From the NCBI GenBank assembly GCA_043719805.1, contig JAYSTI010000001.1:151770-215769 (forward strand): 64,000 bases of DNA, read 5' to 3'. This DNA comes from Candidatus Lloydbacteria bacterium (GTDB taxonomy: Bacteria; Patescibacteriota; Minisyncoccia; Phycocordibacterales; UBA6899). Of the stretch, positions 761 to 55,694 are shown piece after piece (the first letter of the stretch is position 1; each line of letters opens with the position of its first letter). Both the position numbers and the translations under genes were made by a program. The notes below the pieces were generated by a model. That model did not search any database, was not told the origin of the DNA, and saw only the letters and a program-made list of their open reading frames with translations.

Positions 761-858
761 GAGCGAGATATTGCTTTTTTGGGGGGCTACGGACCGCGGC
801 GGCGGGAGTCTGAGGAAAAAGTCAGCAGACTTTTATCCGTGCCCTCAAAAAGCAATGT
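761..858. repeat. Family-1 intergenic structured element, copy A (~98 nt). Long imperfect terminal inverted repeat (ATTGCTTTTTTGGGGGGCTACGG / CCGTGCCCTCAAAAAGCAAT) around a GC-rich core with inner hairpin AGTCTG..CAGACT
   Basis: ~90% identical to 1951-2048. Both copies lie immediately 3' of minus-strand genes (rpiB, gap). The spurious plus ORFs 731..1015 and 1968..2375 are translations of this repeat (shared GYGPRRRESE.KVSRL). Confidence 0.7.
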
Positions 859-868
859 CGTGCGACCT

Positions 869-1950: not shown

Positions 1951-2048
1951 GAGCGAGGTATTCCTTTTTGAGGGGCTACGGACCGCGGCGGCGGGAGTCT
2001 GAGAAAAAAGTTAGCCGACTTTCATCCGCGCCCTCCAAAGGCAATGCC
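1951..2048. repeat. Family-1 intergenic structured element, copy B
   Basis: Aligns base-for-base with 761-858 (GAGCGAGGTATTCCTTTTTGAGGGGCTACGGACCGCGGCGGCGGGAGTCTGAGAAAAAAGTTAGCCGACTTTCATCCGCGCCCTCCAAAGGCAATG). Sits between the gap stop codon and the NADAR promoter. Confidence 0.7.
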
Positions 2049-2057
2049 GAGCGGCGC

Positions 2058-11485: not shown

Positions 11486-11618
11486 TCACAAACGGCGAAC
11501 TTCTTTGTTGTGGAGCCTCTCTCACTCAATCAACATATAGGAATATGTCCTCTTCGTTCGCTTCTCCACGCCGCGAATTTCATCTGTTTCTGAACATTCT
11601 GCCGTGGCTAGCATTTTA
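11486..11618 (-). repeat. Family-2 structured leader element, copy A (~135 nt), immediately 5' of the gatB start codon
   Basis: ~70-75% identical to 16145-16285. Ends 12-18 nt before the ATG. Conserved hairpins carry compensatory changes (see findings). The spurious ORF 11522..11944 translates it (..ETDEIRGVEK..KRTYSY..). Confidence 0.65.
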
Positions 11619-16144: not shown

Positions 16145-16285
16145 CGTTCCGCAAACGGCGAGCTTCTTCGTTGCGGAGCCTCTGCGTCTCGGTCACCGTA
16201 TAAGAATACGTCTTCCTCGCCGCTTTCTCCGCGCCTCGAATCTCATCCGTTTCTGTAAGTCTTCTGTAGCATACTGCATTCTCCC
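16145..16285 (-). repeat. Family-2 structured leader element, copy B, immediately 5' of the DnaQ-like exonuclease start codon
   Basis: Homologous to 11486-11618. Ends ~12 nt before the ATG at 16136. The ORF-track N-terminal extension of 15567..16334 translates it (..ETDEIRGAEK..RKTYSY..). Confidence 0.65.
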
Positions 16286-28892: not shown

Positions 28893-28948
28893 GAAAAACA
28901 AAAACCATCCTCACCTTGTTGTCGTACGACAACAAGGTGAGGATGGTT
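28893..28948 (-). terminator. intrinsic terminator formed by a perfect 46-bp palindrome (22-bp arms)
   Basis: AACCATCCTCACCTTGTTGTCG-TA-CGACAACAAGGTGAGGATGGTT preceded on the plus strand by AAAAACAAAAA (U-run on the minus RNA). Lies directly after the stop at 28956. Confidence 0.6.
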
Positions 28949-40820: not shown

Positions 40821-41062
40821 ACGGATGGGTCGTTAAAAATAGGTATAGTTCTCTGGGATTATAGCCGGAAATCGCTCCCGATACCCCACTATAGCGCATG
40901 GAGGCAAAAAATGAAAACGCAAAATTTCAAGGCCTATTCTTCATGATTTGCTAGCCCACAGGGAGTAAGAAATGGATTGACGCGTCAGTCTTCACATAAA
41001 TTTCGATGGATAACGAGGCCATAAGGTGGATAGTCTTATTTTTCAAAAAATTTACCTATCCG

Positions 41063-41128
41063 CGAGGCGGCAAGGAAGCGATATTGTTATGGCGTACTCG
41101 GAGTACGGCATAACAATTCGCAACGAAG
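41063..41128. repeat. Family-3 intergenic element, copy A: dyad GCGTACTC-G-GAGTACG within a 13-bp hairpin (GTTATGGCGTACTC / GAGTACGGCATAAC), ~270 nt upstream of secA
   Basis: Shares CGAGGCG.CAA..GGAAG..GGCGTACTCGGAGTACG..CAACGAAG with 55539-55615. Confidence 0.5.
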
Positions 41129-41164
41129 CCAACAATGCAGGCAAGCAAATTTTGAAGAATAGAG

Positions 41165-41204
41165 GAAAACAAAAACTCCCACATGGGGAGCTCTTGTTTT
41201 GTGG
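41165..41204. terminator. bidirectional intrinsic terminator (CTCCC-acatg-GGGAG flanked by A-run and T-run)
   Basis: AACAAAAACTCCCACATGGGGAGCTCTTGTTTTGTGG. Lies directly 3' of the micro-ORF on the minus strand. Confidence 0.5.
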
Positions 41205-41216
41205 AAGAACGGTTAT

Positions 41217-41291
41217 TTATGCCTTCTTCTTCTTCTTCTTCGCTGCAGTCTTCTTTACTGCCTTCTTTGCTGCCTTCTTTTTTGCTGCCAT
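41217..41291 (-). CDS. 24-aa Lys/Ala-rich micro-ORF (MAAKKKAAKKAVKKTAAKKKKKKA)
   Basis: ATG...TAA read from the minus strand of the (GCC/TTC)n low-complexity tract. Own terminator 10 nt downstream. AT-rich putative promoter region upstream. No SD. Confidence 0.3.
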   Translation of the reverse strand: MAAKKKAAKKAVKKTAAKKKKKKA

Positions 41292-41628
41292 AGAGGTGGA
41301 GATTATGATTTATAAAAATGAGTGTTTCGACCGCAAACATCATTTACCGAAGTGAGTGCTCTCGTGAAATAATTTTCATTGCTAGCAACGAACACTCCTA
41401 CTACTATTATCCCTCTTCATTGCATCACACTCAACATGTTTTCAAAGAAAGATGTGGATAACTTTTATTTCATCTCTTATGTAAAAATTATTTTTCATAT
41501 CGATGAAATTAATTTTTCATCGTCACCAGAAAATTTTTGAAATATTGTTGTGGATTTCATATTACATTCACGCTTCAATGGAGTGATGAGAATGCATGCG
41601 TAAATGATATTTCAATTCGCCGTCATCT

Positions 41629-43916: not shown

Positions 43917-44051
43917 AATGAAGCAATTATACCACCATTCACCACCAAGCAATCCCCCCAATATTTTCCCCACCACCAAGACCCAGTGTTGCAGTTCAAG
44001 CTAGAATGAATCTAAGTCCAGTATTCTTGTATTTCTCATGTTATAATAATA

Positions 44052-44723
44052 TTATAATTTCCTCGGCCTTCCCGGCATCCGTACCGTACTCTCCATCTGA
44101 TGTGCATCGACGAACTTTGTGACCCACTTCTCACGTCCATACGGTGTCCCCCGTTGTACGCTCTGGCGTATTTCCTTGAGGACATCTTCATTGTATGTCG
44201 TATTCACCTCCTTGAAATATTGATGTGGGAGATCGACAGGAAGTTTCGCAAGGAGCTTCTTCTGCTTGGGTGTTCCCTCCAGACAACGGTAGAGACTGGA
44301 GTACTTCCAGTCTTCAGAACGCTGTACGATTTTAGCACGAAGTGGGTTCTGTTCGACATAGCGGATCAGTGTCGTGAGATATTCGCTTTTCTCCACGGGA
44401 AAGGACTTATATGATCCTTGGTATAAATGCCCACCGCCAATGCTTTTAGTGGCGACACGGTGGTGGCGTACGTGGGTTGTGGTGAGCCAGTGCATGAATG
44501 CACTCATGTCCGTGTCGGTGCGCGGATAGAGCACTAAATGCCAGTGATTGGGCATGATGCAGTATGCAAGGATACGCATGTCGAGGAGTTCTTTTGCCTC
44601 TTCAAGGAGTGACTCGAAGTGTCTATATTCCTTGTCGTTCTTGAAGATAGTCGCGCGACCGTTAGCGCGATTAATGACGTGGTAGATAGTGTCACCAATG
44701 GCGATGCGGTGTTGGCGGGGCAT
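44052..44723 (-). CDS. REP-associated tyrosine transposase (RAYT; IS200/IS605-like Y1 HuH transposase), single copy
   Basis: IYHVINRANGR.TIFKNDKEY..F..LL.......MRILAYCIMPNHWHLVLYP (HuH = HWH), and the later Y in ..YVEQNPLRAKIV is the RAYT hallmark. Confidence 0.85.
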   Translation of the reverse strand: MPRQHRIAIGDTIYHVINRANGRATIFKNDKEYRHFESLLEEAKELLDMRILAYCIMPNHWHLVLYPRTDTDMSAFMHWLTTTHVRHHRVATKSIGGGHLYQGSYKSFPVEKSEYLTTLIRYVEQNPLRAKIVQRSEDWKYSSLYRCLEGTPKQKKLLAKLPVDLPHQYFKEVNTTYNEDVLKEIRQSVQRGTPYGREKWVTKFVDAHQMESTVRMPGRPRKL

Positions 44724-44746
44724 GAAACTATATTACACCATGTGAT

Positions 44747-45091
44747 TTAGAAATCAACTGTACTTATCCCCGTTTTCCGTTTTCTCCCGTTTTCGTCCGT
44801 GGTGGAGGCACGGGTGAGGCGATAGAGACCGTCATACTGATAACTGGTGGGTGCGGTTGCGTTGGTGGTATCAGGTACAAACACATACACCAGCGGTACA
44901 TACACAAACAGGGTGGTGCTGTCGTCATAGGGTGAAATGGCAAGTACACCGAGCACAATGTCGTCGGTGTGATGGATATAGACCTCAATGGGGATTGGGT
45001 CAGGTACAGGGACAGGAATCTCTTCTCCGAAAGCAGCAAAAGGAGAAAATATGAGGGAGAGAATTAGGAGTGTGGGGAGGAGCTGGGGCAT
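44747..45091 (-). CDS. small secreted protein whose C-terminus is an orphan RHS/YD-repeat fragment
   Basis: Signal-like MPQLLPTLLILSLIFSPFAAFG. C-terminal TSYQYDGLYRLTRASTTDE closely parallels TTYSYDGLYRLVSASTTEA inside the giant Rhs protein. Confidence 0.4.
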   Translation of the reverse strand: MPQLLPTLLILSLIFSPFAAFGEEIPVPVPDPIPIEVYIHHTDDIVLGVLAISPYDDSTTLFVYVPLVYVFVPDTTNATAPTSYQYDGLYRLTRASTTDENGRKRKTGISTVDF

Positions 45092-45103
45092 GAAATAACT
45101 ACT

Positions 45104-45367
45104 TCATTTTTTTATAAGTCGAAAAGCCCACGGTTCGTCACCTGTTTCTGGTTTTCCCCTGTACTCGAGGATTTTTTCTACGCACTCCCTCCAGTCTGTG
45201 CCATATAGGGCTGGATCAGCGGAGTCACCATCCGCCAATAGTGCTGCCCCCCCTAATATATTTGCTATCTGTTCTTCTTCACGATGTCCGATATCCCACC
45301 ACTTTAAGAGAAATAAATACATAGCCTTATAAGCCTCTTTTTGTGTAAGAGTAATTTCTTCGTTCAT
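45104..45367 (-). CDS. putative immunity protein for the Rhs C-terminal toxin (87 aa, acidic, cytosolic)
   Basis: Starts 1 nt after the Rhs stop on the same strand. Same low GC (~42%) as the toxin CT. This is the classical rhs-CT/immunity arrangement. Confidence 0.5.
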   Translation of the reverse strand: MNEEITLTQKEAYKAMYLFLLKWWDIGHREEEQIANILGGAALLADGDSADPALYGTDWRECVEKILEYRGKPETGDEPWAFRLIKK

Positions 45368-45368
45368 A

Positions 45369-48300
45369 TTAATTTTTTGGTTTAATTGGACTTGATAATC
45401 CGGTCTGAGGGTTGAATGTTCGTGGAGCTGAATTTACTCCGCCGTTTACGATATTTCCATTTCTTGTTTCTGCCCACACCTGCGTTCCATTTTTTTGAGT
45501 ATTTCCGTACCATGTATTACCTGACTCTGCGACACCAAGCATATTTTTCTGATTATTTGCTGTGCCCAATAGCAACTGACGATTTGCTGGGGTATCAGCA
45601 AGGTGTCCAGGTTCATTTCTAAATATATGTCCGAGCTGACTTCGATTTGTTGGGAGGCTAATGCTAGCTCGCCCAGCCACAGAGGGATTTCCAGCAGGCT
45701 TATATCCCCCCGAAAACGTTGCAAGAAGTGGCAACGAATTTGCATTGCCATTTGCTACATCATTAACATATTGTAGATTCCCTCCTGCAAAGTTTCGCAT
45801 CGCCGATTGATCACCAGGCATAAGATCTGCGGCCCCATAGACAAAGAAATTTGCAACAGTAAATATAGCGACACCAAGCGGAACAAATGTTATTCCCGCT
45901 TTCCCACTTGGATCACTGTAGTTTATTGGGTTATTCCCCGAATAACTATACGAATTTAACAGTTGAGGTGAAGCAAGCACTGTTGTCTGGTCAATCTCCG
46001 CTGGATTCATCCCCGATGCGGCAATGATGTACGGCGGAATCTTCCCCATCATCCCAATATCCCTCGCAACAGGGTCTTGACTTTTAAACTTTCCATTGCC
46101 TCCGTCATAGTATCGCGCATTCAGATAACTCATCCCGACGTCGTCGCTTTGGTGTTCCCCGATAAATTGACGACTTGCTTTCGCAGTGCCAGTCTTCTCA
46201 TCAAGGCGCTTTTCTCCGAATGGGTAATATGCCGTCACTTCTCCTGCTCCACCGGTGGAGTTGCTCCATACACTTGTGGAATTGAGATGGTCAGCATGTG
46301 CGATGAGTGTGGAGGTGGCAGTTCCATTTCCTTCAACAGTTCCAATGAGCATGTCTCCTGCGTAGATAGAGAGTGTGGTGGTGGCGCCTTTGGTGGAGAA
46401 ATACTTACTGAAGAATGAAGTGGTTGTTGTCCCCGAACCTTTATTGATACTCTCGGTGACTCTTTGTCCCGTGTGGTCGTACAAATAGCTCGTTGATGTT
46501 CCTGATTTTGTTGTCGACAGCAAGCGGTTCAAGTAGTCCCAAGTATTGCTCATGCCATTGTATGAGGTAACATTTCCTGCATTATCATACGTCAGTGCGT
46601 TACCATTGATCGCACTTGCGGCATGGGGATTCATCCACCCTGTGCCGGCATACGTATAACTGCCGACATCCGACTTGCTCGTCATGTTCCCAAGGAGGTC
46701 ATATGCATATGTGTGACTATATGGGGTTGAGGTGGCTTCGGTAGTGGAGGCACTCACTAATCTATAGAGTCCATCATAACTGTATGTGGTGGTGGCTGCG
46801 GAGCGAGAGTCCGAGTTGTCGATCGTCTTTGTGATGTTGCCGACGAGATCGTAGGTGTAGTTAATATCTTGAAGTCCGGTGTACGCAGTACCCCCTCCTC
46901 CACCACCTCCCGCCGAATGCACCACCACCAACTTCGAGTCATCACTCGTTCCCGCACTCGACTCAGTCGAGTAAAGCACAATACGCTCAAAGCCCCCGCT
47001 CACCCATGTTGGCGCAGTGTTTGCGACATCATAAGTCGCTTCTCTGAATGAGAATTTTGAAACTCCCGTTTTGGACACTGCTGATATACCACTTGCATTC
47101 AGCGTCCAGTCATTCCAACTATCGTTTGCGAATGAGGCATACGCTACCGCAGTCGAAAATGGGGTTGTTCCCACTTCATCAAAATCTGCAGTCACTAAAT
47201 CGGAATTGCTCGCAGGATTTGAGGAGTAAATATTGTACGTGGTGCTCCAAGACTGATTATTTTTTGCAATCGTCTTTCCCGAAAGCGTGGCGCTTGAAAC
47301 AGTATTCGTATCGGGGAGATTAGCAGTGTCAAACAGGAGGAATGTACGAGACAGTCCATCCCATCCATTGGTGCCCGTATCAGCGGATATATATGCAGCG
47401 GTACCCTGCCCGCTCGGATATGCTGCATAGCCAGTTGTGCCATCGTGAATACTTGCCCACGTTCCATTTGCGGAATCAGAAACTACTTGTCCGTCAACGC
47501 TCGACGTTTCGGGATCTGCATCAGGATAGTACGTGTCGGTTGTATTACCAATCTTCCCACTAACTATAAAGTCTCCACTTTTTCCTGCGATACTAATAGC
47601 GTGTGCAAGTTCGCTTTGTAGCGCGAGCTTGAGGTCTTCTTTGTAGTTATTGACTTCATGTGATTGGTTGGCGCGTCCTTCATCAACTACGCGTCGCTTG
47701 GTTCCGTCTGGAACCAAGATGCGAGGATTAAAGAAGCGGAAGCGCTCGATTTCCACCGTGCCGTCATCACCGAAGCCGATGGGGCGATCATTTGCATCCC
47801 ATGCGCGGGCAAATACTTGGACTCCTCCCTCAATGGGGTCCATGCGTTGTACCTCGATGAAGTATGCACCCTGGCGAACCTTGGAAATGCTCCCTATATT
47901 CGCAATTGCTTGACCCTTAAGATTGGCATGCTGTGCGATGGGGGCGCCAATAAGGGAATCAGCGACGGGTCGTGTCGACGTGGCGATAATTTCAACCAAA
48001 GTACTTGTCGCGATACTGAGCGAAGGCAATGGAGAAATTATTACTGGTGTCTCAAGGACTGCTGCGGTTACTACGGGATTATCACTTGGTATCAGTAACG
48101 AGGTTTCGTTTTCAATAACTAATGGAGTGGTGGATGGTGTACTCGAAGCGTACACCGAGAGTAACACCTCTTCTATGCTGAGGAGTGGGCTTGCTGTTGT
48201 ATTTTCAGTCTCAAGTAACGCGAGTGAGCGCAATTTGTTTTTTCCAAATGTCATACCCAAAAAGAGTAGCTGTTCTGGCGTCGAGAGAGTAGATGTGGAA

Positions 48301-51300
48301 ACTGTGAGCTTGCGCGTCAGGTGATAGAGGTTTGTGGCGTCATAAGAATAGGTGGTCTTGGTATTGTTGCCATAATCCACCTCTGTTGGTTTTCCATGCG
48401 GGCCATAGGTCACCGACTCAAGAAGTGTGTTCCACGTGGTTGACCCGACAGAAAGACCGCGCACGCGATTGAGATCTCCGGCGTCATTGTAGGCGTAAGC
48501 GATCTGATGTCCGGTGGGATAGGTCAGTGTATCGACAGCACCAGTACGGAGATAACTTGTTGACGTGGTTGCCCAGGTACTGCTGACCTGCTTTGCTTCA
48601 GTTGATACAAGACCGATGGGGTTATATATATACGTGGTCGTTGCGGCATTGTTGGCATTTATCTCGCACACTCTTCCCTTCCCGTTCGTACAGGTGTCGT
48701 AACGATAGATGATATCGGTTAGTCCGGTTGAGGTTGTTGTCGCATCTTCGGAGAGTACTCGATTAAGCGCATCATAGGTGTAGGAGATCGTGTTTCCGCG
48801 TGGAGTGTAAACTTGAATCAGATTTCCGGCAAGGTCGTATTGGCGTGAAGTTGTGCCAAATGTCGTATCACCCGATGAGTGCAGGTCCTCACTTCCCGTG
48901 AGGCGAGCGAGGTTGTCGTACGTGAAGTTGCGAATATTTGCCGACGCATCGGTCAACTTCGTGAGCTTGCCGAGGAGATTCCAGTTGTATGTCGTCGTCC
49001 CCGAGACGGTGGGACTCAGATACTCAACGACCGTCGCAAGATTGCCGTATGTGTCTTTGGCGAGATCCTTTTTGTTGCCAAGTGGATCGGTCACCGTGAG
49101 CTGCCAATCGTTGTATGTGTTGGTGGTTGTGCCGAAGACATCCGCAACGGTCTTCGTTCTCCCCGCTGCATCGTATGCGAAGTTGGTGAAGAAGTACGCC
49201 GCGGTTGTCGCACTCGTGTACGCACTCGTTGTCGCAAAATACGGGAGCGACTGCGCACCCACTGCACCGATGGTGTTGTATATCGTGTCATTCGTGATCC
49301 ATCCGTTTACAGATTCTGCTTCGCGCTTCGACTGTATTGTACGACCAAGGCCATCGAGATATGTGTATGCTTCGGTGGTCGTTGCGTTCGAGAGATAATC
49401 TTTGCGGAAGACACTTGATGGGGTCGTGGTCGAATCGGTGTACGAATACGTGGTGCGCGTCACCATCGTGCTTGCACTCATGAAGTCAGGCTGCTTTTCC
49501 TCAGTGGGTCTGTCGAGTCCATCATATAGCGTTACCATCGTCTTGCTGTTCTCGTCGCTTGAGGTAGCAACCTTGCCGGACGAGTAGTCGTAGTAGAAAC
49601 TCATTGATTGAGACAGCGCATTTGTTGTTGATGCGGGATAGAGGTTGTATAGGTCGTAAGTGTAGTTGGTGGGATTCCCGAGTGGATCGCGTGACTGTGT
49701 GACAAGTCCGTATGCATTGTATGCTTTGGTGGTCGAGGCATAGGTGGAGCCAGAGATCAATCTCTCTTCTTTGGTTTGATTTCCCGCCGACACAGAACCG
49801 AACGAAAGGTTGTCATACGTCCACTTCGTGTCTTTGACGGTAGCTCCCAACTGGTCTGTCACCAATTCGCGTGACAGGAGCGACATGATGCTGTTTGTGG
49901 AACTCGCAGCGTATGTGTATGTCGTTGACGCTTTGTCGGCACCAAGATCAGTGAATGTTCCGTCGCTTGCGCCTGACACTTCTCCGTAGTTATCGCGCTC
50001 GGAAACATTTCCCAGGGTATCATCGTACGTGCTTGCAATCGCCATATCACGATGCGTCGAATCCCCATCGAATGTCTGCACGAGCGACTGGATGAGCTTC
50101 ACAAAATTGCGCCCATCGCCATAGTCGGCACGCGCCCACTTGTTGATGGTGCGAGAAAAAAGATTTGCTGCACTCGTCGTACCATTGAGCATCTCGATGC
50201 GATAGGGTTTTCCCGTCTTGGAGATGTGGTCGTTGTACTCGCCATTGGATGAGTCGCTTGTGTTCCCCTGATGGAAGTATGTACGGATTGTGTGACCCTG
50301 CGCATTTGTTTTTGTGGTGCTTCCAAATCCTGCAAACTGACGATCAGTGCTACTCCCGAAGTAGTACGAACCGCCACGAAAATCGTAGGTCGTCGTGGCT
50401 ATCGCGCCACCAAAGCGGGGGTCAGTGGCAATGGTTTTCACTGTATCGAATGCTATCGCAAGCGAAGGATTCGGTAAATTACCCATTGAATCAATTTGCC
50501 CACTGCGCCCATAGGCGATCGTCTGCGTTCCGCCTATTTCATTCTTGATACTGGTGAGCACGTCGGACTTCACACCATTTTTTAGCTTCACGCTCCTAAT
50601 CAGATTCGTGCAGTTACAATCGTAATATCCATTGCGCGACTGTACTATATCAATTAAACCATCACTGTTTACATCATCTATCACAAAGCCCCTATCGTAG
50701 ACCACTCCACTTTGGATAAATACGAACCCCCCACCAAGACCTGCTCCCGATGCCACCCAGCCTAAACCTGTATTGAGATAGTTCACACCTGCGTTGTCGG
50801 TAATGTCGGGTAAACCGTCACTGTTTGAATCAGCAAATCTTGCTCCCGTATCACCCGTGCTATCGACAAATGCCACAGGGGGAAGCCAGGGGGTACTCGA
50901 AGTGCCCCATCCATGGCCAGTGTTCAGATATGTAGCCTGAGATACGCCGCTTTTCGACGCCACGACATCAACGAGCCCGTCTCCATTCACATCTATAAAA
51001 CGTACGCCGTTGTCATGATTTGAAACGACGGGCGTCACCGGGGAGTTCCACGCTGAATCATAGACCCACTGACTGCCATTATTGATAAACGTTCCTGCCC
51101 CGGTAATGTCGGCCAAACCGTCACCATTCACATCGGCCATGGTGTACCCAAAGTCGTTATAGGTGATGTTGTACACAGAAGTAACAAAACTCACGGGGAG
51201 AGTACGACCCGAAAGAGTCCACCCATTTGGGCCACCGTAGTACACCCTATTTTGTGCGGTGCTTCCACAATTAACGCCCCAGTAGCACATTATTGACTGT

Positions 51301-54300
51301 ACTATATCCACAATCCCATCGCCGTTAACATCAGCGAGACGCACGCCATTATCACCACCCCCGCCAGGACTCACCGGGAAATAGTTAGTCGTTGCGGTCG
51401 CCCACGTGCTGCCCGTATTGAGCCATGCATTCGTCGTACTATAAAGAATATCAGGTAATGAATCTCCGTTTGCATCGACAACGCGCACTCCGCCGTCGCC
51501 ACTACTTGAATCAACAAAGCTATAGAGCGGTGAAGGAAGTGACCAGTGTGCACCGTCGGATTCTGTCCATGTATTTGTGCTCGTGGAATACCCGTATTGT
51601 ATTATTGGAAGTGTCGTCGTTCCCACACCCGCACCCCAACCTGACTCCCCAACTGAGCTTAACAAAGAACGCTTAGTGTTATTCCCTTCGACATAACTCA
51701 ATTGGTAGCGATGGGTGAGTTGTCCGTTTGTGCGCACGAGAATTTCCTTGATCCTTTGACTTGTCACCACCGGAAAACCAGAGAGCGAACTTGTCGCAAT
51801 ATCGGGACGATTTTCACGTGCAAACTCCACTTCATAGATACCGGCACTACCGCCGTTTGATGTGTAATTCACCTTGTACGGATACACTTGCCCCGTAGCG
51901 GAATCTTTATAATAGGAATATGTTGCGGCATTGCCATTTGGGTCAGTGATGCTTTCGAGCATCCAGCGAAAAGTGGAGGTCGCCGCGTTGCCATTGTCTA
52001 AACGAGAACTACTAGCACTTCCGAACACGTATCTCCATCCCTTCTTATCTTTAGCCGTCCATCCACCATCCCCGGAAATAAGGTGATAACTTATAAAGTC
52101 GCCATTCTCCACTTTTGCATCATAGTCAGTACTATAGTCCATGACAAAATAGTCGCCAGACGCACTCCAGTCACCCGCTGTTCCTACCTGATTCCAGAAC
52201 TTCATACGCCAATAGTACTTTGTGCCATCAATAACAAACGTGGTAGTCGAGAAAATTTGTGGCGTACGTACACCAGAAGGGGTAGAACTTGAGAGCGTGA
52301 CCTTCCCACTATCCCAATACAAGCTCGACCAACTCGTTGAAGATGAGGTCACTTGAATTTCATAACTTGACGCAAGGGCCGTCGAGGAGGCACTTTGGTA
52401 GACGGCGGAAAACTGCGGGCTCGATGTCGCGACACCGCTTGGATTCGTTTGTGACCCGACCCAAAGTGCAATCGGCGCAGAAGTGTCGGTGAGCACCGTT
52501 TCAATCGTCAGATATGGATCGGTTGATGTCCCCGTCGCCTCGGACATCGCGATATTAAAGCTTAAATCAGTGTTTGCGCCAGGACTTGGTGGGACGCTAT
52601 CAATCGTGTCTGCATGAACGAGCGCACCGAACGTCGTGACCCCGGCCTTATTGATTGAGGTGGTCGAAAGGTTGATATTGTTATACGCTCCGTTCGTTGT
52701 CGCATCATAATCAAGAAAACCGTGAACGGTTGTGCCGAAATTTGCAATCGCATAGTCCCCCGATGAAAGATAGGTACTCGCCGAGGTGGTGGCCGACACG
52801 ATATCGAGATCTTCATCGCGATCTGGTGCACCGACTTGATTAATGTGATTGTTCACATACAGAGAAAGCGTCGCAGTTGCGATTGTATCAGTAGGTGGGA
52901 TGCTTGATGTATCAAATTTGAGAATACATCGGCCGATGGAGCGCCACAGAGTTTCGGCCAATGCGCGACATTCTACTAGTGCCGCGTTATTATCCACATT
53001 TCCCGTCGTTCGACCCCTCAATGATGACCATGCCTCAGTGGGAGTAACGTACGTACTAATGTAGCCATCGACCAAAGGAGTGCTGAAACTAAATATTGCG
53101 TCACTTCGGACGGGATACGTCGCCTTCTCAAGCCATGCGCGAGGAATTCTTTTGGTGAAGGTAATACTGCCATCTGCGTTCTGTGTATAAGAAATATTAA
53201 CTGATGATACATTCGATAATACTGTCGAAGCATCTGCGGAATACGCCATGGGGGGAAGGATGTATGTCGGTGTACCAAAAGTGTCAGTGATGGTAACGAC
53301 ACCCGATGAAACGAGAGGCTGATCTTTGGCCAGCGTTTGGGAATCTGATTTGAGTGTGAGGGTGGAGGCACCCGAAAGTGTGAAGGGTATTTCCAGATAA
53401 TCGCCCTTCAGATTTGCGAGCGCATCGATATTCCTAATTACAACGTTTTCAACAATTGAATTGTCCTTGGTGATGACCTCAAGATCAATGCCGGCCCCGA
53501 GAAGGTCGGGGTACAACATTGTGTATTCATCAGTCCTTTCAGCGCGGAGTGGGGTCGTCGTTGAAACTCCCGGCACGTCGATGTTGATGGTGCTCGCGGC
53601 ATGAGTGAAGGACAGCAGATGTGATTTTCCTGTTGTATCTAATGTGGCTTCGTATGGGGCTTTGGTGACATGGAACTCACCATCACCCTTCACGAGTCGC
53701 GAGTCTATTTCTTCGTATGATTGTGTTTGTGCGTCAAAGTATTGTACGGGAGCAGGATAGAGGCGATACAGTGTACTGATCTTGCGCTCTCTGTCCACGT
53801 TAATAAATTTTCGCATTGTCGGGGTGCGCTCGGAGGTCAACTCAACGGGGACATCAATTTGCGCAGCAAATGCGCCATTTGGGCTGCGCACGCTATCGAG
53901 AGTTGTTCCTTTCCCTTTCGCTATTGACGTGACAACGGGAGTGGATGGAACTACGGTATCAAGAAGTGGGGTCGCACTTACTTGGGATACCACGGCGTCC
54001 CCAATCACTGGAGTGTCCATAACGGGAACGGTATCTGCCGCGAGGTCACTAGGAACAATTGTGGTGTCTTCGAGCGCAAGGCGAGAAGGAAATTTGAAGG
54101 ATGGCAGCGTAGATGCAAAAAGAGAATACCCGAGGAATGATCCCCCTACTGGGGTCGTGGTGCTAACGGGGAGTAGCTCGCCTGAGAGTGAAGAATAGAA
54201 AAAACTGTGCTGAATATCCTGATTGAATAGGTTATCAACACCAGCCTTATTGAGACGCTCGATGTATGGAATGTTCATCGACCATCCGTAACCGAATAGA

Positions 54301-54590
54301 GAATCGAGGCGGGTGTTTGCGGAAGAATAGGAGAGCTTGAGATCGGGCTGAACGCCACCTCTTCCGAGGGGAATGGCAATGGGGAGTGATTGCTCAAATG
54401 CTCCACTTTGCATGTCGGGCTGCAAATAGGGACGCGGTGCGAAATTATCTTTCGTGTTCCGATAAAAGTCGTCCTCAGCGAAAACAAGTCCACTCGGGAC
54501 GAGCATGCTTACAATAACAAGAAGTGCGAGATTTGCACTCAATCGTTTTTTGTTTCTGATAACAGCAAACGCCCCCAAGTGCTTCTCCAT
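45369..54590 (-). CDS. giant (~3070 aa) SpvB/FG-GAP/RHS-repeat polymorphic toxin (Tc TcB-TcC fusion-like) with RHS core autoproteolysis motif and 177-aa C-terminal toxin domain
   Basis: Signal peptide from MEKHLGAFAVIRNKKRLSANLALLVIVSMLVPSGLVFA. ORF-track N-terminal extension 54591-55043 rejected. SpvB motif LPIAIPLGRGGVQPDLKLSYSS..FGYGWSM. FG-GAP/VCBS repeats (DVNGDGLADI, DSNSDGLPDI...). Dozens of YD repeats. Core ARYYDGGNGKFKSQDPV...NYSDPSGKAG. Unassigned CT. Confidence 0.9.
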   Translation of the reverse strand: MEKHLGAFAVIRNKKRLSANLALLVIVSMLVPSGLVFAEDDFYRNTKDNFAPRPYLQPDMQSGAFEQSLPIAIPLGRGGVQPDLKLSYSSANTRLDSLFGYGWSMNIPYIERLNKAGVDNLFNQDIQHSFFYSSLSGELLPVSTTTPVGGSFLGYSLFASTLPSFKFPSRLALEDTTIVPSDLAADTVPVMDTPVIGDAVVSQVSATPLLDTVVPSTPVVTSIAKGKGTTLDSVRSPNGAFAAQIDVPVELTSERTPTMRKFINVDRERKISTLYRLYPAPVQYFDAQTQSYEEIDSRLVKGDGEFHVTKAPYEATLDTTGKSHLLSFTHAASTINIDVPGVSTTTPLRAERTDEYTMLYPDLLGAGIDLEVITKDNSIVENVVIRNIDALANLKGDYLEIPFTLSGASTLTLKSDSQTLAKDQPLVSSGVVTITDTFGTPTYILPPMAYSADASTVLSNVSSVNISYTQNADGSITFTKRIPRAWLEKATYPVRSDAIFSFSTPLVDGYISTYVTPTEAWSSLRGRTTGNVDNNAALVECRALAETLWRSIGRCILKFDTSSIPPTDTIATATLSLYVNNHINQVGAPDRDEDLDIVSATTSASTYLSSGDYAIANFGTTVHGFLDYDATTNGAYNNINLSTTSINKAGVTTFGALVHADTIDSVPPSPGANTDLSFNIAMSEATGTSTDPYLTIETVLTDTSAPIALWVGSQTNPSGVATSSPQFSAVYQSASSTALASSYEIQVTSSSTSWSSLYWDSGKVTLSSSTPSGVRTPQIFSTTTFVIDGTKYYWRMKFWNQVGTAGDWSASGDYFVMDYSTDYDAKVENGDFISYHLISGDGGWTAKDKKGWRYVFGSASSSRLDNGNAATSTFRWMLESITDPNGNAATYSYYKDSATGQVYPYKVNYTSNGGSAGIYEVEFARENRPDIATSSLSGFPVVTSQRIKEILVRTNGQLTHRYQLSYVEGNNTKRSLLSSVGESGWGAGVGTTTLPIIQYGYSTSTNTWTESDGAHWSLPSPLYSFVDSSSGDGGVRVVDANGDSLPDILYSTTNAWLNTGSTWATATTNYFPVSPGGGGDNGVRLADVNGDGIVDIVQSIMCYWGVNCGSTAQNRVYYGGPNGWTLSGRTLPVSFVTSVYNITYNDFGYTMADVNGDGLADITGAGTFINNGSQWVYDSAWNSPVTPVVSNHDNGVRFIDVNGDGLVDVVASKSGVSQATYLNTGHGWGTSSTPWLPPVAFVDSTGDTGARFADSNSDGLPDITDNAGVNYLNTGLGWVASGAGLGGGFVFIQSGVVYDRGFVIDDVNSDGLIDIVQSRNGYYDCNCTNLIRSVKLKNGVKSDVLTSIKNEIGGTQTIAYGRSGQIDSMGNLPNPSLAIAFDTVKTIATDPRFGGAIATTTYDFRGGSYYFGSSTDRQFAGFGSTTKTNAQGHTIRTYFHQGNTSDSSNGEYNDHISKTGKPYRIEMLNGTTSAANLFSRTINKWARADYGDGRNFVKLIQSLVQTFDGDSTHRDMAIASTYDDTLGNVSERDNYGEVSGASDGTFTDLGADKASTTYTYAASSTNSIMSLLSRELVTDQLGATVKDTKWTYDNLSFGSVSAGNQTKEERLISGSTYASTTKAYNAYGLVTQSRDPLGNPTNYTYDLYNLYPASTTNALSQSMSFYYDYSSGKVATSSDENSKTMVTLYDGLDRPTEEKQPDFMSASTMVTRTTYSYTDSTTTPSSVFRKDYLSNATTTEAYTYLDGLGRTIQSKREAESVNGWITNDTIYNTIGAVGAQSLPYFATTSAYTSATTAAYFFTNFAYDAAGRTKTVADVFGTTTNTYNDWQLTVTDPLGNKKDLAKDTYGNLATVVEYLSPTVSGTTTYNWNLLGKLTKLTDASANIRNFTYDNLARLTGSEDLHSSGDTTFGTTSRQYDLAGNLIQVYTPRGNTISYTYDALNRVLSEDATTTSTGLTDIIYRYDTCTNGKGRVCEINANNAATTTYIYNPIGLVSTEAKQVSSTWATTSTSYLRTGAVDTLTYPTGHQIAYAYNDAGDLNRVRGLSVGSTTWNTLLESVTYGPHGKPTEVDYGNNTKTTYSYDATNLYHLTRKLTVSTSTLSTPEQLLFLGMTFGKNKLRSLALLETENTTASPLLSIEEVLLSVYASSTPSTTPLVIENETSLLIPSDNPVVTAAVLETPVIISPLPSLSIATSTLVEIIATSTRPVADSLIGAPIAQHANLKGQAIANIGSISKVRQGAYFIEVQRMDPIEGGVQVFARAWDANDRPIGFGDDGTVEIERFRFFNPRILVPDGTKRRVVDEGRANQSHEVNNYKEDLKLALQSELAHAISIAGKSGDFIVSGKIGNTTDTYYPDADPETSSVDGQVVSDSANGTWASIHDGTTGYAAYPSGQGTAAYISADTGTNGWDGLSRTFLLFDTANLPDTNTVSSATLSGKTIAKNNQSWSTTYNIYSSNPASNSDLVTADFDEVGTTPFSTAVAYASFANDSWNDWTLNASGISAVSKTGVSKFSFREATYDVANTAPTWVSGGFERIVLYSTESSAGTSDDSKLVVVHSAGGGGGGGTAYTGLQDINYTYDLVGNITKTIDNSDSRSAATTTYSYDGLYRLVSASTTEATSTPYSHTYAYDLLGNMTSKSDVGSYTYAGTGWMNPHAASAINGNALTYDNAGNVTSYNGMSNTWDYLNRLLSTTKSGTSTSYLYDHTGQRVTESINKGSGTTTTSFFSKYFSTKGATTTLSIYAGDMLIGTVEGNGTATSTLIAHADHLNSTSVWSNSTGGAGEVTAYYPFGEKRLDEKTGTAKASRQFIGEHQSDDVGMSYLNARYYDGGNGKFKSQDPVARDIGMMGKIPPYIIAASGMNPAEIDQTTVLASPQLLNSYSYSGNNPINYSDPSGKAGITFVPLGVAIFTVANFFVYGAADLMPGDQSAMRNFAGGNLQYVNDVANGNANSLPLLATFSGGYKPAGNPSVAGRASISLPTNRSQLGHIFRNEPGHLADTPANRQLLLGTANNQKNMLGVAESGNTWYGNTQKNGTQVWAETRNGNIVNGGVNSAPRTFNPQTGLSSPIKPKN

Positions 54591-54661
54591 ACACGTAAGA
54601 TTATGAATATGTAACCAATGATACGCCTTTATAAAATATAATCCTTGTAACATCCTACGAA

Positions 54662-55438
54662 ATGTGGGGAGAATGGGGGGACAACGAGGTGGTGGGCCGG
54701 ATGTGCTCGCCCAATGTGGATTGCACCCATATAATGAAATACATGCCCCCAAGCGACGAAAATCAAAACTCACCCTCTGTGGTACCCCAAGAGCCCGAAA
54801 CACCCCAAGGGAATGCCCCTGCTCTTCAGGCAATGTCTGATACGACCTCGAATGACGAGATGACCCCTTCGGTGGACACAACACAGGCCTCTGTGGTGAG
54901 CGAGATACCTGACAGCTCAGTAGTGACAGAGGCTGAACAAGTAACCGTACCTGTGCCAGACTCCGTGGAAACGACACAAACTGAGCCATCTTCTGACGCT
55001 GCAATTCCTGAGGTGGTGACGATCCCAATTGTGGAAACACCATCGCCCAACTCAGGCGACGTTATGGAAAGTGAGCATCTACCAGAGACCGTAAACGGCT
55101 CAAATGGTGTATCTGAGCCAATACCCTCTCCATCGGCTTCGGGAGCAGTGGAAAGCGAGATTACCCAGTCGGCAGTTGCAACGACGGTGGCGAGCACAAG
55201 CATCGTTCTGCTACTACTCCAGAAAGGACGTGCAATCATTCAGCTGCGGAAGTACAAGAAACTCGAGCGAATCATGGGGCTCTTTGCGAAGAAGCCCCAC
55301 ATCAGAAATGACGACGTCGAGAAGCTGCTGCGCGTCTCAGATGCTACCGCGACGCGCTATCTCTCACTACTTGAGCGATCGGGAAAAATCACTCAGTCGG
55401 GCAAAGCGGGGCGGGGTGTGGTGTATGTGAAAACCTAA
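54662..55438 (+). CDS. winged-helix DNA-binding protein with ~170-aa acidic Ser/Thr/Pro/Val-rich N-terminal region, divergent from the Rhs gene
   Basis: C-terminal HIRNDDVEKLLRVSDATATRYLSLLERSGKITQSGKAGRGVVYVK is a wHTH fold pattern. Alternative start at 54734 (MKYMPP). Overlaps only the rejected Rhs N-terminal extension. Confidence 0.5.
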   Translation: MWGEWGDNEVVGRMCSPNVDCTHIMKYMPPSDENQNSPSVVPQEPETPQGNAPALQAMSDTTSNDEMTPSVDTTQASVVSEIPDSSVVTEAEQVTVPVPDSVETTQTEPSSDAAIPEVVTIPIVETPSPNSGDVMESEHLPETVNGSNGVSEPIPSPSASGAVESEITQSAVATTVASTSIVLLLLQKGRAIIQLRKYKKLERIMGLFAKKPHIRNDDVEKLLRVSDATATRYLSLLERSGKITQSGKAGRGVVYVKT

Positions 55439-55538
55439 ACGGCTCAGATGGTGTACATGAACCGTTTAGGCCTTGGAAATCAAAATTGATCTGACAGAAG
55501 CGATCACACCAGGGCGGGTTTCAGTTTGGAGTGAAGAA

Positions 55539-55615
55539 CGAGGCGTCAACGCGGAAGTCTTCCAGAGGCGTACTCGGAGTACGATGAGCGGAGACTCCGC
55601 AAGTCGACAACGAAG
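55539..55615. repeat. Family-3 intergenic element, copy B (GGCGTACTCGGAGTACG dyad plus GCGGA-gac-UCCGC hairpin)
   Basis: Aligned with 41063-41128. Lies between convergent genes. Confidence 0.5.
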
Positions 55616-55646
55616 TTATTCGCCCAAAATGGAAGTCACCCCGCAA

Positions 55647-55680
55647 CAAAAAAACAGCCCCGGGAGGAGCTGTTTTTTTG
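55647..55680. terminator. bidirectional intrinsic terminator (A7-CAGCCCCGGGAGGAGCTG-T7)
   Basis: Between the convergent wHTH (+) and ligase-like (-) genes. Confidence 0.5.
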
Positions 55681-55694
55681 TTTGATCTGCTATT

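What the first reader, a model, noticed from the sequence alone, without database searches (positions are those of the whole stretch)
44052..44723. Single-copy RAYT (REP-associated tyrosine transposase) in a window that also carries three families of short structured intergenic repeats
The HuH (HWH) plus catalytic-Tyr protein of the TnpA_REP/IS200 type is a domesticated transposase. It is thought to disperse REP/BIME hairpin elements. This window carries three distinct two-copy hairpin repeat families (761/1951, 11486/16145, 41063/55539). They are candidates for the REPs this enzyme mobilises. None directly flanks the RAYT gene here.
Basis: partly seen in the sequence, partly recalled or inferred. 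Interest (0 to 1): 0.55.

Follow-up and report, generated by a model that had tools for sequence, protein, structure and literature searches.

The report
TIR-flanked tyrosine transposase relative, not REP-linked
The gene is an intact single-copy relative of REP-associated transposases, but it belongs to the already described TIRYT subgroup, which carries its own GGGG-core inverted repeats, and the three repeat families named in the finding have nothing to do with it.

Summary
The ORF at 44052-44723 (minus strand, 223 aa) is real. It has the Y1 HUH nuclease fold with an intact HWH motif and catalytic Tyr122, and there is one copy in the window.

It is not a classical REP-associated RAYT. It scores below NCBI's RAYT cut-off. 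It aligns end to end with published TIRYTs (39-43% identity) and only weakly with E. coli or Pseudomonas RAYTs.

In 74 homologous Patescibacteria loci the gene is bracketed by inverted repeats with a GGGG[AT][CT]A[GA] core. The core starts about 46 nt before the ATG in 62 loci and lies 35-44 nt after the stop in 40 loci.

The window has the left repeat, with its GGGGATAAGTAC core at 44760-44771, plus two extra partial heads. The right repeat (44008-44051) has lost its GGGG core.

The three repeat families exist but are unrelated to this gene:
- Family 1 is a conserved structured RNA-like motif at 1-2 copies per genome, absent from the roughly 55 homologous loci searched.
- Families 2 and 3 are two-copy structured intergenic units that lack the TIR motif.

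One new observation: the gene sits at the end of an RHS toxin, immunity and orphan array, and 13 homologous loci show the same neighbourhood.

Verdict: a new member of a known kind, of moderate interest.

The parts
44052..44723 (-). TIRYT-type Y1 HUH tyrosine nuclease/transposase homologue, 223 aa. HUH is H60-W-H62, the catalytic Tyr is Y122 (RYVEQNP), followed by an SS motif (DWKYSSL), a C-terminal helical extension and a GRPRK tail.
   Evidence: dN/dS is 0.05-0.07 against 74-82% identical homologues.
44724..44777 (-). Left terminal inverted repeat. On the gene strand it reads GAAAACGGGGATAAGTACAG, then an inner part with promoter-like TTGATT (44757-44752), a 16-nt spacer and TAATAT (44735-44730), ending 6 nt before the ATG. 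The GGGG core starts 48 nt before the ATG.
   Evidence: The position matches the mode of 46 nt in 62 of 74 homologous loci. The promoter assignment is an inference: the consensus scan did not call it.
44778..44794 (-). Two extra partial 'heads' of the left repeat in tandem (GAAAACGGGA, GAAAACG), overlapping the 3' end of the upstream 114-aa ORF.
   Evidence: The same stutter arrays occur in homologues. They vary in copy number between near-identical strains.
44008..44051 (-). Right terminal inverted repeat remnant. The inner roughly 40 nt match the right repeats of close homologues, but the GGGGA core is replaced by GAATC (GAATCTAAGTCC where L016 has GGGGATAAGTCC).
   Evidence: No second copy of the core anywhere in the window, even with up to 3 mismatches.
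44747..45091 (-). 114-aa ORF: a signal peptide plus the start of a short RHS-type protein (YQYDGLYRLTRASTT), cut off by the left-repeat heads. It reads as a truncated orphan RHS module.
   Evidence: By eye its sequence resembles the N-terminus of the 561-aa RHS orphan at L027 5764-7449 (no alignment was run for that pair). tblastn gives a hit in L025.
45104..45367 (-). 87-aa ORF directly after the RHS gene, a presumed immunity protein with no Pfam match.
   Evidence: The role is inferred from position only.
45369..55043 (-). Giant RHS/SpvB/YD-repeat toxin gene immediately upstream and co-oriented. The ORF is 3224 aa from the first ATG; it was called as 3073 aa in L001.
   Evidence: Pfam SpvB, FG-GAP, RHS_repeat, TEN_YD-shell.
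761..864 (+).
1951..2053 (+).
11486..11605 (-).
16148..16265 (-).
41091..41107 (+). A terminator-like hairpin with a T-run follows near 41185-41212.
   Evidence: No Rfam match.
55567..55583 (+). A terminator-like hairpin with a T-run follows near 55655-55685.
   Evidence: No Rfam match.

Best explanation
What it is. [quoted passage not shown] This corresponds to TnpA_Y1 subclass 2.1 of Quentin et al. 2018 and to the 'TIRtron' arrangement of Di Nocera et al. 2013. It belongs to a large, strongly conserved Patescibacteria/Parcubacteria branch of that group.

Shown.
- The protein has an intact Y1 HUH fold and intact catalytic residues.
- It is under strong purifying selection.
- Across the family the gene is bracketed by inverted repeats whose outer end carries a GGGG[AT][CT]A[GA] core at a fixed distance from the start and stop codons.
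- The repeat sequence differs between protein subgroups in the examples examined. This was not tabulated.
- The outer 'head' of the repeat is reiterated in tandem, and its copy number varies between near-identical strains.

Inferred.
- The enzyme recognises its own repeats and nicks and rejoins one DNA strand near their outer boundary through a 5'-phosphotyrosine intermediate, as TnpA_REP and IS608 TnpA do on single-stranded DNA.
- This activity generates the head stutters and the occasional solo repeats.
- The inner part of the left repeat doubles as the gene's promoter, so binding would also autoregulate expression.

The window copy. The unit sits at the distal end of an RHS toxin, immunity and orphan array. 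It has cut off an orphan RHS gene on its left. It has lost the GGGG core of its right repeat. The gene is therefore probably still expressed and active, but the unit as a whole is probably no longer excisable.

The three families. It has no functional link to repeat families 1, 2 or 3.
For: Protein identity.
- Pfam Y1_Tnp at 68.5 bits.
- Full-length alignment to published TIRYTs, with E 1e-67 to 1e-55, against E 1e-6 to 1e-11 for canonical RAYTs.
- It shares subclass 2.1-type signatures (PMC6006769, Table 1 and section 20): NHWH, YVEQNP, the SS motif, a length of 223 aa against a subclass median of 238, and a C-terminal PxGxxxW...GRPxK tail.
- The AF2 model has pLDDT 93.4. Its best PDB match is TnpA_REP 4er8 (E 7.7e-8), followed by ISDra2 and IS608 TnpA.

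Repeats in homologues.
- The flanking inverted repeat scores more than 5 sd above shuffled-flank controls in most loci that have enough flank.
- The core motif lies sense-upstream in 62 of 74 loci (mode 46 nt) and reverse-complement downstream in 40 of 74 (35-44 nt). Wrong-orientation controls give 3 and 4.

Repeats in the window.
- The left core starts at 48 nt, with three heads in all.
- The right repeat is conserved except for its core.
- There is no other copy in 64 kb.

Selection. dN/dS is 0.05-0.07.

Repeat dynamics. L009 and L010 encode the identical protein and have flanks about 99.9% identical. They differ only by indels of repeat units, +72 nt upstream and +62/+11 nt downstream.

Solo repeats. 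13 copies occur in 329 kb of flanking DNA, against about 0.1 expected.

RHS neighbourhood.
Against: - No biochemical data exist for any TIRYT that I could find, so cleavage at the repeats is inferred by analogy.
- The window's core, GGGGATAA, departs from the published GGGGWSAS consensus at two positions.
- The right repeat core is missing here and in 34 of 74 homologous loci by the relaxed motif, so a two-ended element is not universal.
- The window-type repeat does not fold into a hairpin, unlike the substrates of characterised Y1 enzymes.
- The C-terminal extension gave no HTH Pfam match.
- The promoter assignment was not called by the consensus scan in the window.
- Genome-wide copy number of the repeat and of the gene could not be measured. 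Only 64 kb of the genome is held.
Confidence: 0.78

Rival explanations
1. This is a classical REP-associated RAYT that disperses one or more of the three hairpin repeat families seen in the window.
For: The fold and catalytic motifs are RAYT-like. The gene is single-copy in the window. Families 1 and 2 are real structured palindromic units that sit just outside coding regions.
Against: - The protein is below the RAYT equivalog cut-off and closer to TIRYTs.
- None of the three families flanks the gene, and none carries the family's conserved GGGG core.
- The family 1 core occurs in only 4 stretches of 3 genomes. It has 10 of 31 pairs with compensatory changes. It is absent from 474 kb that includes about 55 homologous loci.
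- The cores of families 2 and 3 are absent from all 94 loci.
Confidence: 0.03
2. The unit (repeat, gene, repeat) is an active, autonomous low-copy insertion sequence that prefers dispensable RHS or toxin-antitoxin islands. It is not a domesticated host gene.
For: - Gene neighbourhoods differ between homologues.
- RHS fragments abut the repeats on either side: L070 3782-3937, L052 4748, L084 4641, and the window's 114-aa ORF.
- Solo repeats occur.
- L093 holds two adjacent units, one of them degraded, each with its own repeat type.
- Quentin et al. report a mean of 1.9 copies per genome for subclass 2.1.
Against: - Every exact-protein look-up returned a single genomic context.
- The pairs of loci encoding identical proteins that were compared (L021/L022, L041/L042, L009/L010) are the same locus from different samples.
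- Length and sequence are conserved over deep divergence, with dN/dS of about 0.05.
- The right repeat core is missing in the window and in many homologues.
Confidence: 0.15
3. The gene is a decaying relic with no current function, and the flanking repeats are only a promoter and terminator-like sequences.
For: The right repeat core is lost in the window. The inner repeat halves look promoter-like.
Against: - The 223-aa ORF is intact with all catalytic residues, and dN/dS is 0.05-0.07.
- The GGGG core lies outside the promoter-like part.
- The published TIRYT repeats, which the authors report from several bacterial phyla, share the same GGGGWSAS core (PMC3733652).
- The motif shows a strong orientation bias, 62 and 40 loci against 3 and 4.
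Confidence: 0.04

Closest known systems
TIRYT / TIRtron (Di Nocera, De Gregorio & Rocco 2013, BMC Genomics 14:522, PMC3733652), in particular rba_2408 (Rhodopirellula baltica), dau_2153 and gbm_2474
   Same: - Full-length homology of 39-43% identity over residues 1-223, including the C-terminal PFGxxxW...RGRPRK tail.
- The gene is bracketed by inverted repeats at a similar distance from the coding sequence, with a GGGG-headed core. Many homologues fit GGGGWSAS exactly, for example GGGGACAG and GGGGTCAG.
- Solo or clustered repeat copies occur in some genomes.
   Different: - The host is Patescibacteria. I found no mention of candidate phyla or Parcubacteria in Quentin et al. 2018. The 2013 paper was not searched for this.
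- The window's subgroup uses GGGGATAAG, which departs from WSAS at two positions.
- The outer head is reiterated in tandem stutter arrays.
- The window copy has lost the right core.
- The RHS-array neighbourhood recurs.
TnpA_Y1 subclass 2.1 (Quentin, Siguier, Chandler & Fichant 2018, BMC Genomics 19:475, PMC6006769), equated with RAYT group 1 of Bertels et al. 2017 by the picocyanobacteria preprint 10.1101/2020.03.09.984088
   Same: - HuH motif of the NH[YF]H type (here NHWH).
- Tyr motif of the Y[IV]xxNP type (here YVEQNP).
- SS motif after the Tyr helix.
- Length of about 238 aa with a conserved C-terminal domain.
- No REPs nearby, and low copy number.
   Different: The C-terminal extension gives no Bac_DnaA_C, HTH_23 or HTH_28 Pfam match here. 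I did not place the protein on their tree.
E. coli TnpA_REP (RAYT, YafM; PDB 4er8) and REPtrons
   Same: Best structural match, with Foldseek E 7.7e-8 and TM 0.72 on the target. Single copy. Flanking repeats in inverted orientation.
   Different: - Only 20% identity over the core and below the NCBIfam cut-off.
- The flanking repeats are not GTAG-headed hairpins.
- They are not dispersed in the 64-kb window.
- There are about 75 extra C-terminal residues.
IS200/IS605 TnpA (IS608, ISDra2)
   Same: The same HUH/Y1 fold.
   Different: - NCBIfam IS200 scores 23.3 against a cut-off of 55.
- No TnpB neighbour.
- No subterminal hairpins in direct orientation.
- One copy only.
tnpA_REP (subclass 2.1) linked to prochlorosin procA gene clusters in marine picocyanobacteria (bioRxiv 10.1101/2020.03.09.984088)
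   Same: The same protein subclass sits next to arrays of rapidly diversifying, multi-copy cassette-like genes. Here the arrays are RHS C-terminal toxin and immunity modules and toxin-antitoxin pairs.
   Different: The cargo differs. Those authors found no inverted repeats, whereas here the repeats are conspicuous.

Membership tests
RAYT sensu stricto (REP-associated tyrosine transposase; REPtron) | Y1 HUH core with an HUH motif and a single catalytic Tyr | tested here: met
   Pfam Y1_Tnp at 68.5 bits. H60/H62/Y122 conserved. Fold match to 4er8.
RAYT sensu stricto (REP-associated tyrosine transposase; REPtron) | Score at or above the curated equivalog cut-off of NCBIfam NF047646 | tested here: not met
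   67.6 bits against a cut-off of 80.
RAYT sensu stricto (REP-associated tyrosine transposase; REPtron) | Gene flanked by REP or REPIN hairpins with a GT[AG]G head | tested here: not met
   The flanks hold a GGGGATAAG-type inverted repeat, not a GTAG hairpin. The same is true in homologues.
RAYT sensu stricto (REP-associated tyrosine transposase; REPtron) | The same repeat dispersed at tens to hundreds of copies in the genome | tested here: inconclusive
   Only 64 kb of the genome is held. No further copy of the flanking repeat is in the window. The family 1 core occurs in only 4 stretches of 3 related genomes. Families 2 and 3 could not be counted genome-wide.
TIRYT / TIRtron (Di Nocera 2013) | Sequence closer to published TIRYTs than to RAYTs, over the full length including the C-terminal tail | tested here: met
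   rba_2408 at 42.6% identity (E 1e-67), gbm_2474 at 38.7%, dau_2153 at 40.4%. Against these, eco_b228 gives 20% (E 1e-6).
TIRYT / TIRtron (Di Nocera 2013) | Gene bracketed by terminal inverted repeats at a fixed distance, many with a GGGGWSAS core (tested across the family) | tested here: met
   Relaxed motif: 62 of 74 loci upstream (mode 46 nt), 40 of 74 downstream (35-44 nt), wrong-orientation controls 3 and 4. Strict GGGGWSAS: 41 upstream, 22 downstream.
TIRYT / TIRtron (Di Nocera 2013) | Both inverted repeats present around this particular gene | tested here: inconclusive
   The left repeat is intact, with its core at 48 nt, but reads GGGGATAA and so departs from WSAS at two positions. 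The right repeat keeps about 40 inner nt but has lost its GGGG core.
TnpA_Y1 subclass 2.1 (Quentin 2018) | Key motifs NH[YF]H/NHVH and YIELNP/Y[IV]HLNP, the SS motif, and a median length of 238 aa | tested here: met
   NHWH, YVEQNP, DWKYSSL and 223 aa, compared with Table 1 of PMC6006769. These are close variants, not exact matches.
TnpA_Y1 subclass 2.1 (Quentin 2018) | C-terminal extension similar to HTH domains (Bac_DnaA_C, HTH_23, HTH_28) | tested here: not met
   No such Pfam match at E up to 1 in 20 members. The model shows a helical extension from about residue 143 to 208, but it was not compared with HTH folds on its own.
TnpA_Y1 subclass 2.1 (Quentin 2018) | Placement inside the subclass in the authors' MCL clustering or tree | not testable with these tools
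   Their HMM profiles and tree are not available here.
IS200/IS605 insertion sequence | TnpA_IS200 equivalog score | tested here: not met
   NF033573 scores 23.3 bits against a cut-off of 55.
IS200/IS605 insertion sequence | TnpB partner, subterminal hairpins in direct orientation, and several copies | tested here: not met
   The neighbours are RHS, 87-aa and 114-aa ORFs, DUF5671 and MurB. There is one copy in the window.

The most novel reading that the evidence does not exclude
In Patescibacteria the TIRYT and its GGGG-core repeats may form a site-specific, single-strand recombination system. It would recruit, duplicate or shuffle small gene cassettes at the ends of polymorphic-toxin arrays, working like an integron but driven by an HUH enzyme. 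The cassettes would be orphan RHS C-terminal toxin and immunity modules and toxin-antitoxin pairs.

The leads are:
- RHS modules lie next to the gene, always co-oriented, in the window and in 13 other loci. That is 11 of 46 loci with at least 3 kb of flank.
- RHS fragments end or begin exactly at the repeats.
- Solo repeats start 10-14 nt after the stop codon of the preceding cassette in L029 (toxin-antitoxin pairs) and L027 (RHS orphans).
- Repeat-unit copy number differs between near-identical strains.
- A parallel has been reported between the same subclass and prochlorosin gene arrays.

Not shown: enrichment over background, since no proper control set was available, and any cassette gain or loss at a repeat.
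Probability: 0.15. Interest if true: 0.75.

Novelty: new member of a known kind. Interest (0 to 1): 0.38.

Why it matters
It corrects an attractive but wrong link: a single 'RAYT' plus nearby hairpin repeats does not make a REP system. It files the gene under a described but functionally uncharacterised group, TIRYT or TnpA_Y1 subclass 2.1.

The comparative data collected here add three points:
- This group is very widespread and tightly conserved in Patescibacteria. There were 3482 hits to the query among the 3572 word-sharing candidates scored, and 339 clusters at 50% identity below E 1e-30.
- The repeats have a fixed geometry and hypervariable head arrays.
- The gene often sits inside RHS toxin arrays.

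If the enzyme really acts on its repeats to move or duplicate toxin and immunity cassettes, that would give a function to a family that has had none since 2013.

Separately, family 1 looks like an undescribed small structured RNA of Parcubacteria.

Tried and rejected
- Rfam at gathering threshold on the whole window, and at E up to 10 on the repeat regions, gave nothing meaningful. There are no tRNAs.
- My first reading of family 2 was paralogous coding sequence, because the substitutions look like third-codon changes. I dropped this because copy A has in-frame stops and both copies lie between genes, immediately 5' of unrelated start codons. The hairpin with 5 compensatory pairs fits better.
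- The first AF2 run, with 20 close homologues, failed (pLDDT 46.7). It was rerun with 73 diverse sequences.
- The consensus promoter and terminator scan found nothing around the gene, so the promoter in the left repeat rests on comparison with homologues only.
- L093 seemed to show a repeat-flanked cargo cassette. Pfam showed it is a second, disrupted Y1 gene with its own repeat type.
- I looked for mobility using pairs of loci that encode identical proteins. They turned out to be the same locus from different samples.
- The cores of families 2 and 3 were searched in all 94 fetched loci, with no matches.
- A cluster look-up for the source organism returned no name.
- Literature searches for RHS plus Y1 transposase found nothing.
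Full report
**Observation.** The window holds an ORF at 44052-44723 on the minus strand, 223 aa. It matches Pfam Y1_Tnp (PF01797) at 68.5 bits against a cut-off of 23. The HUH motif is H60-W-H62 and the catalytic tyrosine is Y122, in RYVEQNP. Both are invariant in 20 homologues and at least 90% conserved in a 73-sequence alignment reaching down to 33% identity. tblastn finds no second copy in the 64 kb.

- Family 1 lies at 761-864 and 1951-2053.
- Family 2 lies at about 11486-11605 and 16148-16265.
- Family 3 is a 17-mer at 41091 and 55567.

**What the protein is.** NCBIfam's RAYT equivalog model scores 67.6 bits, below its cut-off of 80. The IS200 model scores 23.3 against 55. The only solved relative by sequence is E. 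coli TnpA_REP, 4er8, at E 0.004.

The close homologues that carry a source name are from Patescibacteria (Lloydbacteria, Taylorbacteria, Minisyncoccia, 'Pacebacteria'). The first 120 hits are nearly all 220-226 aa long and 57-100% identical. A search of the 50%-identity representative library gave 26,018 clusters at E up to 1e-3 and 339 at E up to 1e-30. The full-length architecture persists down to about 35% identity.

An AlphaFold model built on 73 diverse sequences is confident, with pLDDT 93.4 and pTM 0.91. Its best PDB matches are TnpA_REP 4er8 (E 7.7e-8) and then the ISDra2 and IS608 transposases. Residues from about 143 to 208 form an extra helical region, followed by a conserved GRPxK tail. 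Pfam does not recognise this extension.

**The gene's own repeats.** In the first five homologous loci the gene is bracketed by inverted repeats of 19-49 nt. I then fetched 80 more loci from metagenome contigs and scored the best local alignment between each upstream flank and the reverse complement of its downstream flank. Most loci with enough flank score more than 5 sd above shuffled controls. The upstream arm lies about 27-50 nt before the ATG and the downstream arm about 15-45 nt after the stop.

A motif count makes this precise:
- GG[GT]G[AT][CT]A[GA] occurs in sense orientation upstream in 62 of 74 loci. The proximal copy starts 46 nt before the ATG in 24 loci and within 33-55 nt in 58.
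- It occurs as a reverse complement downstream in 40 of 74 loci, mostly at 35-44 nt.
- The wrong orientations occur in only 3 and 4 loci.

In the examples examined, the repeat sequence differs between protein subgroups:
- GGGGATAAGT(A/C)C in the relatives closest to the window.
- GGGGACAGGGACAAT in another subgroup.
- GG(G/T)GTCAGG(C/T)ACC, which can itself form a hairpin, in the 50-55% identity range.

The outermost 'head' is often reiterated in tandem. Each unit has a fixed 5' start and a variable 3' end.

**The window copy.** On the gene strand the upstream flank reads GAAAACGGGA GAAAACG GAAAACGGGGATAAGTACAGTTGATTTCTAAATCACATGGTGTAATATAGTTTC, followed by the ATG. This gives three heads, with the full one at 44777-44760. 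The GGGG core starts 48 nt before the ATG.

The inner part carries TTGATT, a 16-nt spacer and TAATAT. In homologues this region aligns with TTGATT, a 17-nt spacer and TATAAT. The consensus scan did not call it in the window, so the promoter role is an inference.

Downstream, 44008-44051 aligns with the right repeats of L016 and L015 over the inner 40 nt or so. Where they read GGGGATAAGTCC, the window reads GAATCTAAGTCC. No second copy of the core exists anywhere in the window, even with 3 mismatches. The unit therefore has an intact gene, an intact left repeat and a right repeat without its hallmark core.

**Comparison with what is known.** Di Nocera et al. 2013 (PMC3733652) described RAYT-like genes flanked not by REPs but by terminal inverted repeats. 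Many of these repeats lie at about the same distance from the gene and share GGGGWSAS. The authors named them TIRYTs and TIRtrons. Quentin et al. 2018 (PMC6006769) equate these with their TnpA_Y1 subclass 2.1. That subclass has a median length of 238 aa, HuH NH[YF]H/NHVH, Y[IV]xLNP, an SS motif, a C-terminal domain, no REPs and about 1.9 copies per genome.

Using the sequences printed in Additional file 5 of the 2013 paper, BLASTP aligns the window protein end to end with three TIRYTs:
- rba_2408: 42.6% identity, E 1e-67.
- dau_2153: 40.4%.
- gbm_2474: 38.7%.

The alignments include the C-terminal PFGxxxW...RGRPRK tail. Canonical RAYTs give only 20-26% identity over the core (E 1e-6 to 1e-11).

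The protein is therefore a TIRYT. It departs from the published description in two ways. Its core GGGGATAA deviates from WSAS at two positions, and no HTH Pfam match was obtained.

**Selection and dynamics.** dN/dS against homologues of 74-82% identity is 0.05-0.07, with dS saturated. Every exact-protein look-up returned one genomic context. The pairs of loci encoding identical proteins that were compared are the same locus from different samples.

Neighbourhoods differ between more distant homologues.

Two near-identical strains, L009 and L010, encode the identical protein and have flanks about 99.9% identical. They differ only by repeat-unit indels: 72 nt of extra heads and repeat upstream in L010, and a 62-nt duplication of the right repeat plus 11 nt in L009.

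Solo repeat copies occur outside the gene in 8 of 69 loci, 13 copies in 329 kb against about 0.1 expected.

**Neighbourhood.** In the window the gene follows, on the same strand, three ORFs:
- A giant RHS/SpvB protein at 45369-55043.
- An 87-aa ORF.
- A 114-aa ORF made of a signal peptide plus the start of a short RHS protein (YQYDGLYRLTRASTT), ending inside the repeat heads.

tblastn with the RHS core found RHS C-terminal modules next to the TIRYT in 13 other loci, all co-oriented with it. That is 11 of 46 loci with at least 3 kb of flank. RHS fragments stop at the left repeat in L070, as in the window, or start just after the right repeat in L052 and L084.

In L027 and L029, solo repeats begin 10-14 nt after the stop codon of the preceding cassette. 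The cassettes are RHS orphan plus immunity in L027, and DUF2283, ParE, Gp49/HTH_3 and RelB/YafQ pairs in L029.

I could not run a proper background control, so enrichment is not established. A preprint reports the same subclass next to prochlorosin gene arrays in picocyanobacteria.

**The three repeat families.**

Family 1:
- Its 24-nt core occurs in only four stretches of three species-representative genomes: a Lloydbacteria MAG twice, a Parcubacteria MAG, and a MAG labelled Saccharibacteria.
- The six copies fold into a three-stem structure. Ten of 31 pairs show compensatory changes, and G-U pairs favour the plus strand.
- Rfam has nothing.
- A covariance model finds no further copy in 474 kb that includes about 55 TIRYT loci.
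- It behaves like a low-copy structured RNA, not a REP.

Family 2:
- It is a hairpin of about 105 nt directly 5' of a gatB-like gene and a DnaQ-like exonuclease gene.
- Five of 29 pairs are compensatory between the two copies.

Family 3:
- It shares little beyond the 17-mer.
- By eye, each copy lies on the plus strand upstream of a terminator-like hairpin with a T-run.

None of the three contains the TIR core, and the cores of families 2 and 3 are absent from the 94 loci. Their genome-wide copy number could not be measured.

**Mechanism.**

Shown:
- An intact Y1 HUH enzyme under purifying selection.
- Repeats that are specific in position and orientation and differ between protein subgroups in the examples examined.
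- Hypervariable head arrays.

Inferred, by analogy with TnpA_REP and IS608 TnpA (established biochemistry of Y1 HUH enzymes):
- The protein recognises the GGGG-core repeat and makes a 5'-phosphotyrosine nick near the outer boundary.
- It rejoins strands there, producing head stutters and solo repeats.
- Binding at the left repeat, which overlaps the promoter-like region, would also regulate the gene.

Whether the substrate is single- or double-stranded, and whether the C-terminal helical region and GRPxK tail bind duplex DNA, is unknown.

**Verdict.** The superfamily is right. The subfamily and the partner repeats are wrong. The feature is a new member of a known kind. The RHS-array association and the family 1 RNA-like motif are leads worth following.

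Noticed in passing
window 761-864 and 1951-2053 (+); L011 2232-2334 (-); L012 4245-4347 (-); L013 1063-1165 (+); L014 312-415 (-): A roughly 103-nt three-stem element conserved across several Parcubacteria-type MAGs at 1-2 copies per genome. Ten of 31 pairs show compensatory changes. It has no Rfam match. In the window it is antisense to the flanking genes and starts 4-5 nt beyond their stop codons. It looks like an undescribed small structured RNA.
   Followed up: partly
window 44747-55043 (-); L005, L025, L027, L038, L045, L052, L057, L058, L070, L084, L088, L090, L093: The TIRYT gene repeatedly sits inside or at the end of arrays of RHS toxin, immunity and orphan-RHS modules. It is always co-oriented with them, and RHS fragments end or begin at its inverted repeats. 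Enrichment over background was not tested.
   Followed up: partly
L029 833, 1521, 2462; L027 3860, 5682: Solo copies of the TIRYT repeat start 10-14 nt after the stop codons of small cassettes. The cassettes are toxin-antitoxin pairs in L029 and RHS orphan plus immunity in L027. The repeats have the same orientation as the left repeat, giving an integron-like layout.
   Followed up: partly
L009 9800-10003 and 10655-10830 against L010 2590-2863 and 3515-3630: Two near-identical strains with the identical TIRYT differ only in the number of repeat units on both sides of the gene: +72 nt upstream in L010, and +62 and +11 nt downstream in L009.
   Followed up: yes
L093 1410-2084 and 2228-3214: Two TIRYT units lie side by side, each with its own repeat type (GGGGTCAGGAGCC and GGGGACAGCCACC). 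The second gene is split into 91-aa and 103-aa pieces and is followed by six tandem right-repeat copies.
   Followed up: partly
window 11486-11605 and 16148-16265 (-): A hairpin of about 105 nt lies directly 5' of the start codons of a gatB-like gene and a DnaQ-like exonuclease gene, with five compensatory pair changes between the two copies. It could be a shared leader or a small palindromic mobile unit. Its copy number elsewhere is unknown.
   Followed up: partly
window about 41040-41215 and 55520-55690 (+): Two plus-strand intergenic units share the 17-mer GGCGTACTCGGAGTACG and a few short blocks. Each ends in a terminator-like hairpin with a T-run, in regions where the genes run on the minus strand. 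They may be two paralogous small RNA genes. No Rfam match.
   Followed up: partly
window 28903-28948: A perfect 46-nt palindrome (23 + 23 nt, no spacer: AACCATCCTCACCTTGTTGTCGT / ACGACAACAAGGTGAGGATGGTT) lies between two minus-strand ORFs.
   Followed up: no
window 40821-41628: An unusually long intergenic region of about 800 nt upstream of murB in an otherwise tightly packed genome. It contains a T-rich low-complexity stretch and family 3 copy A.
   Followed up: no
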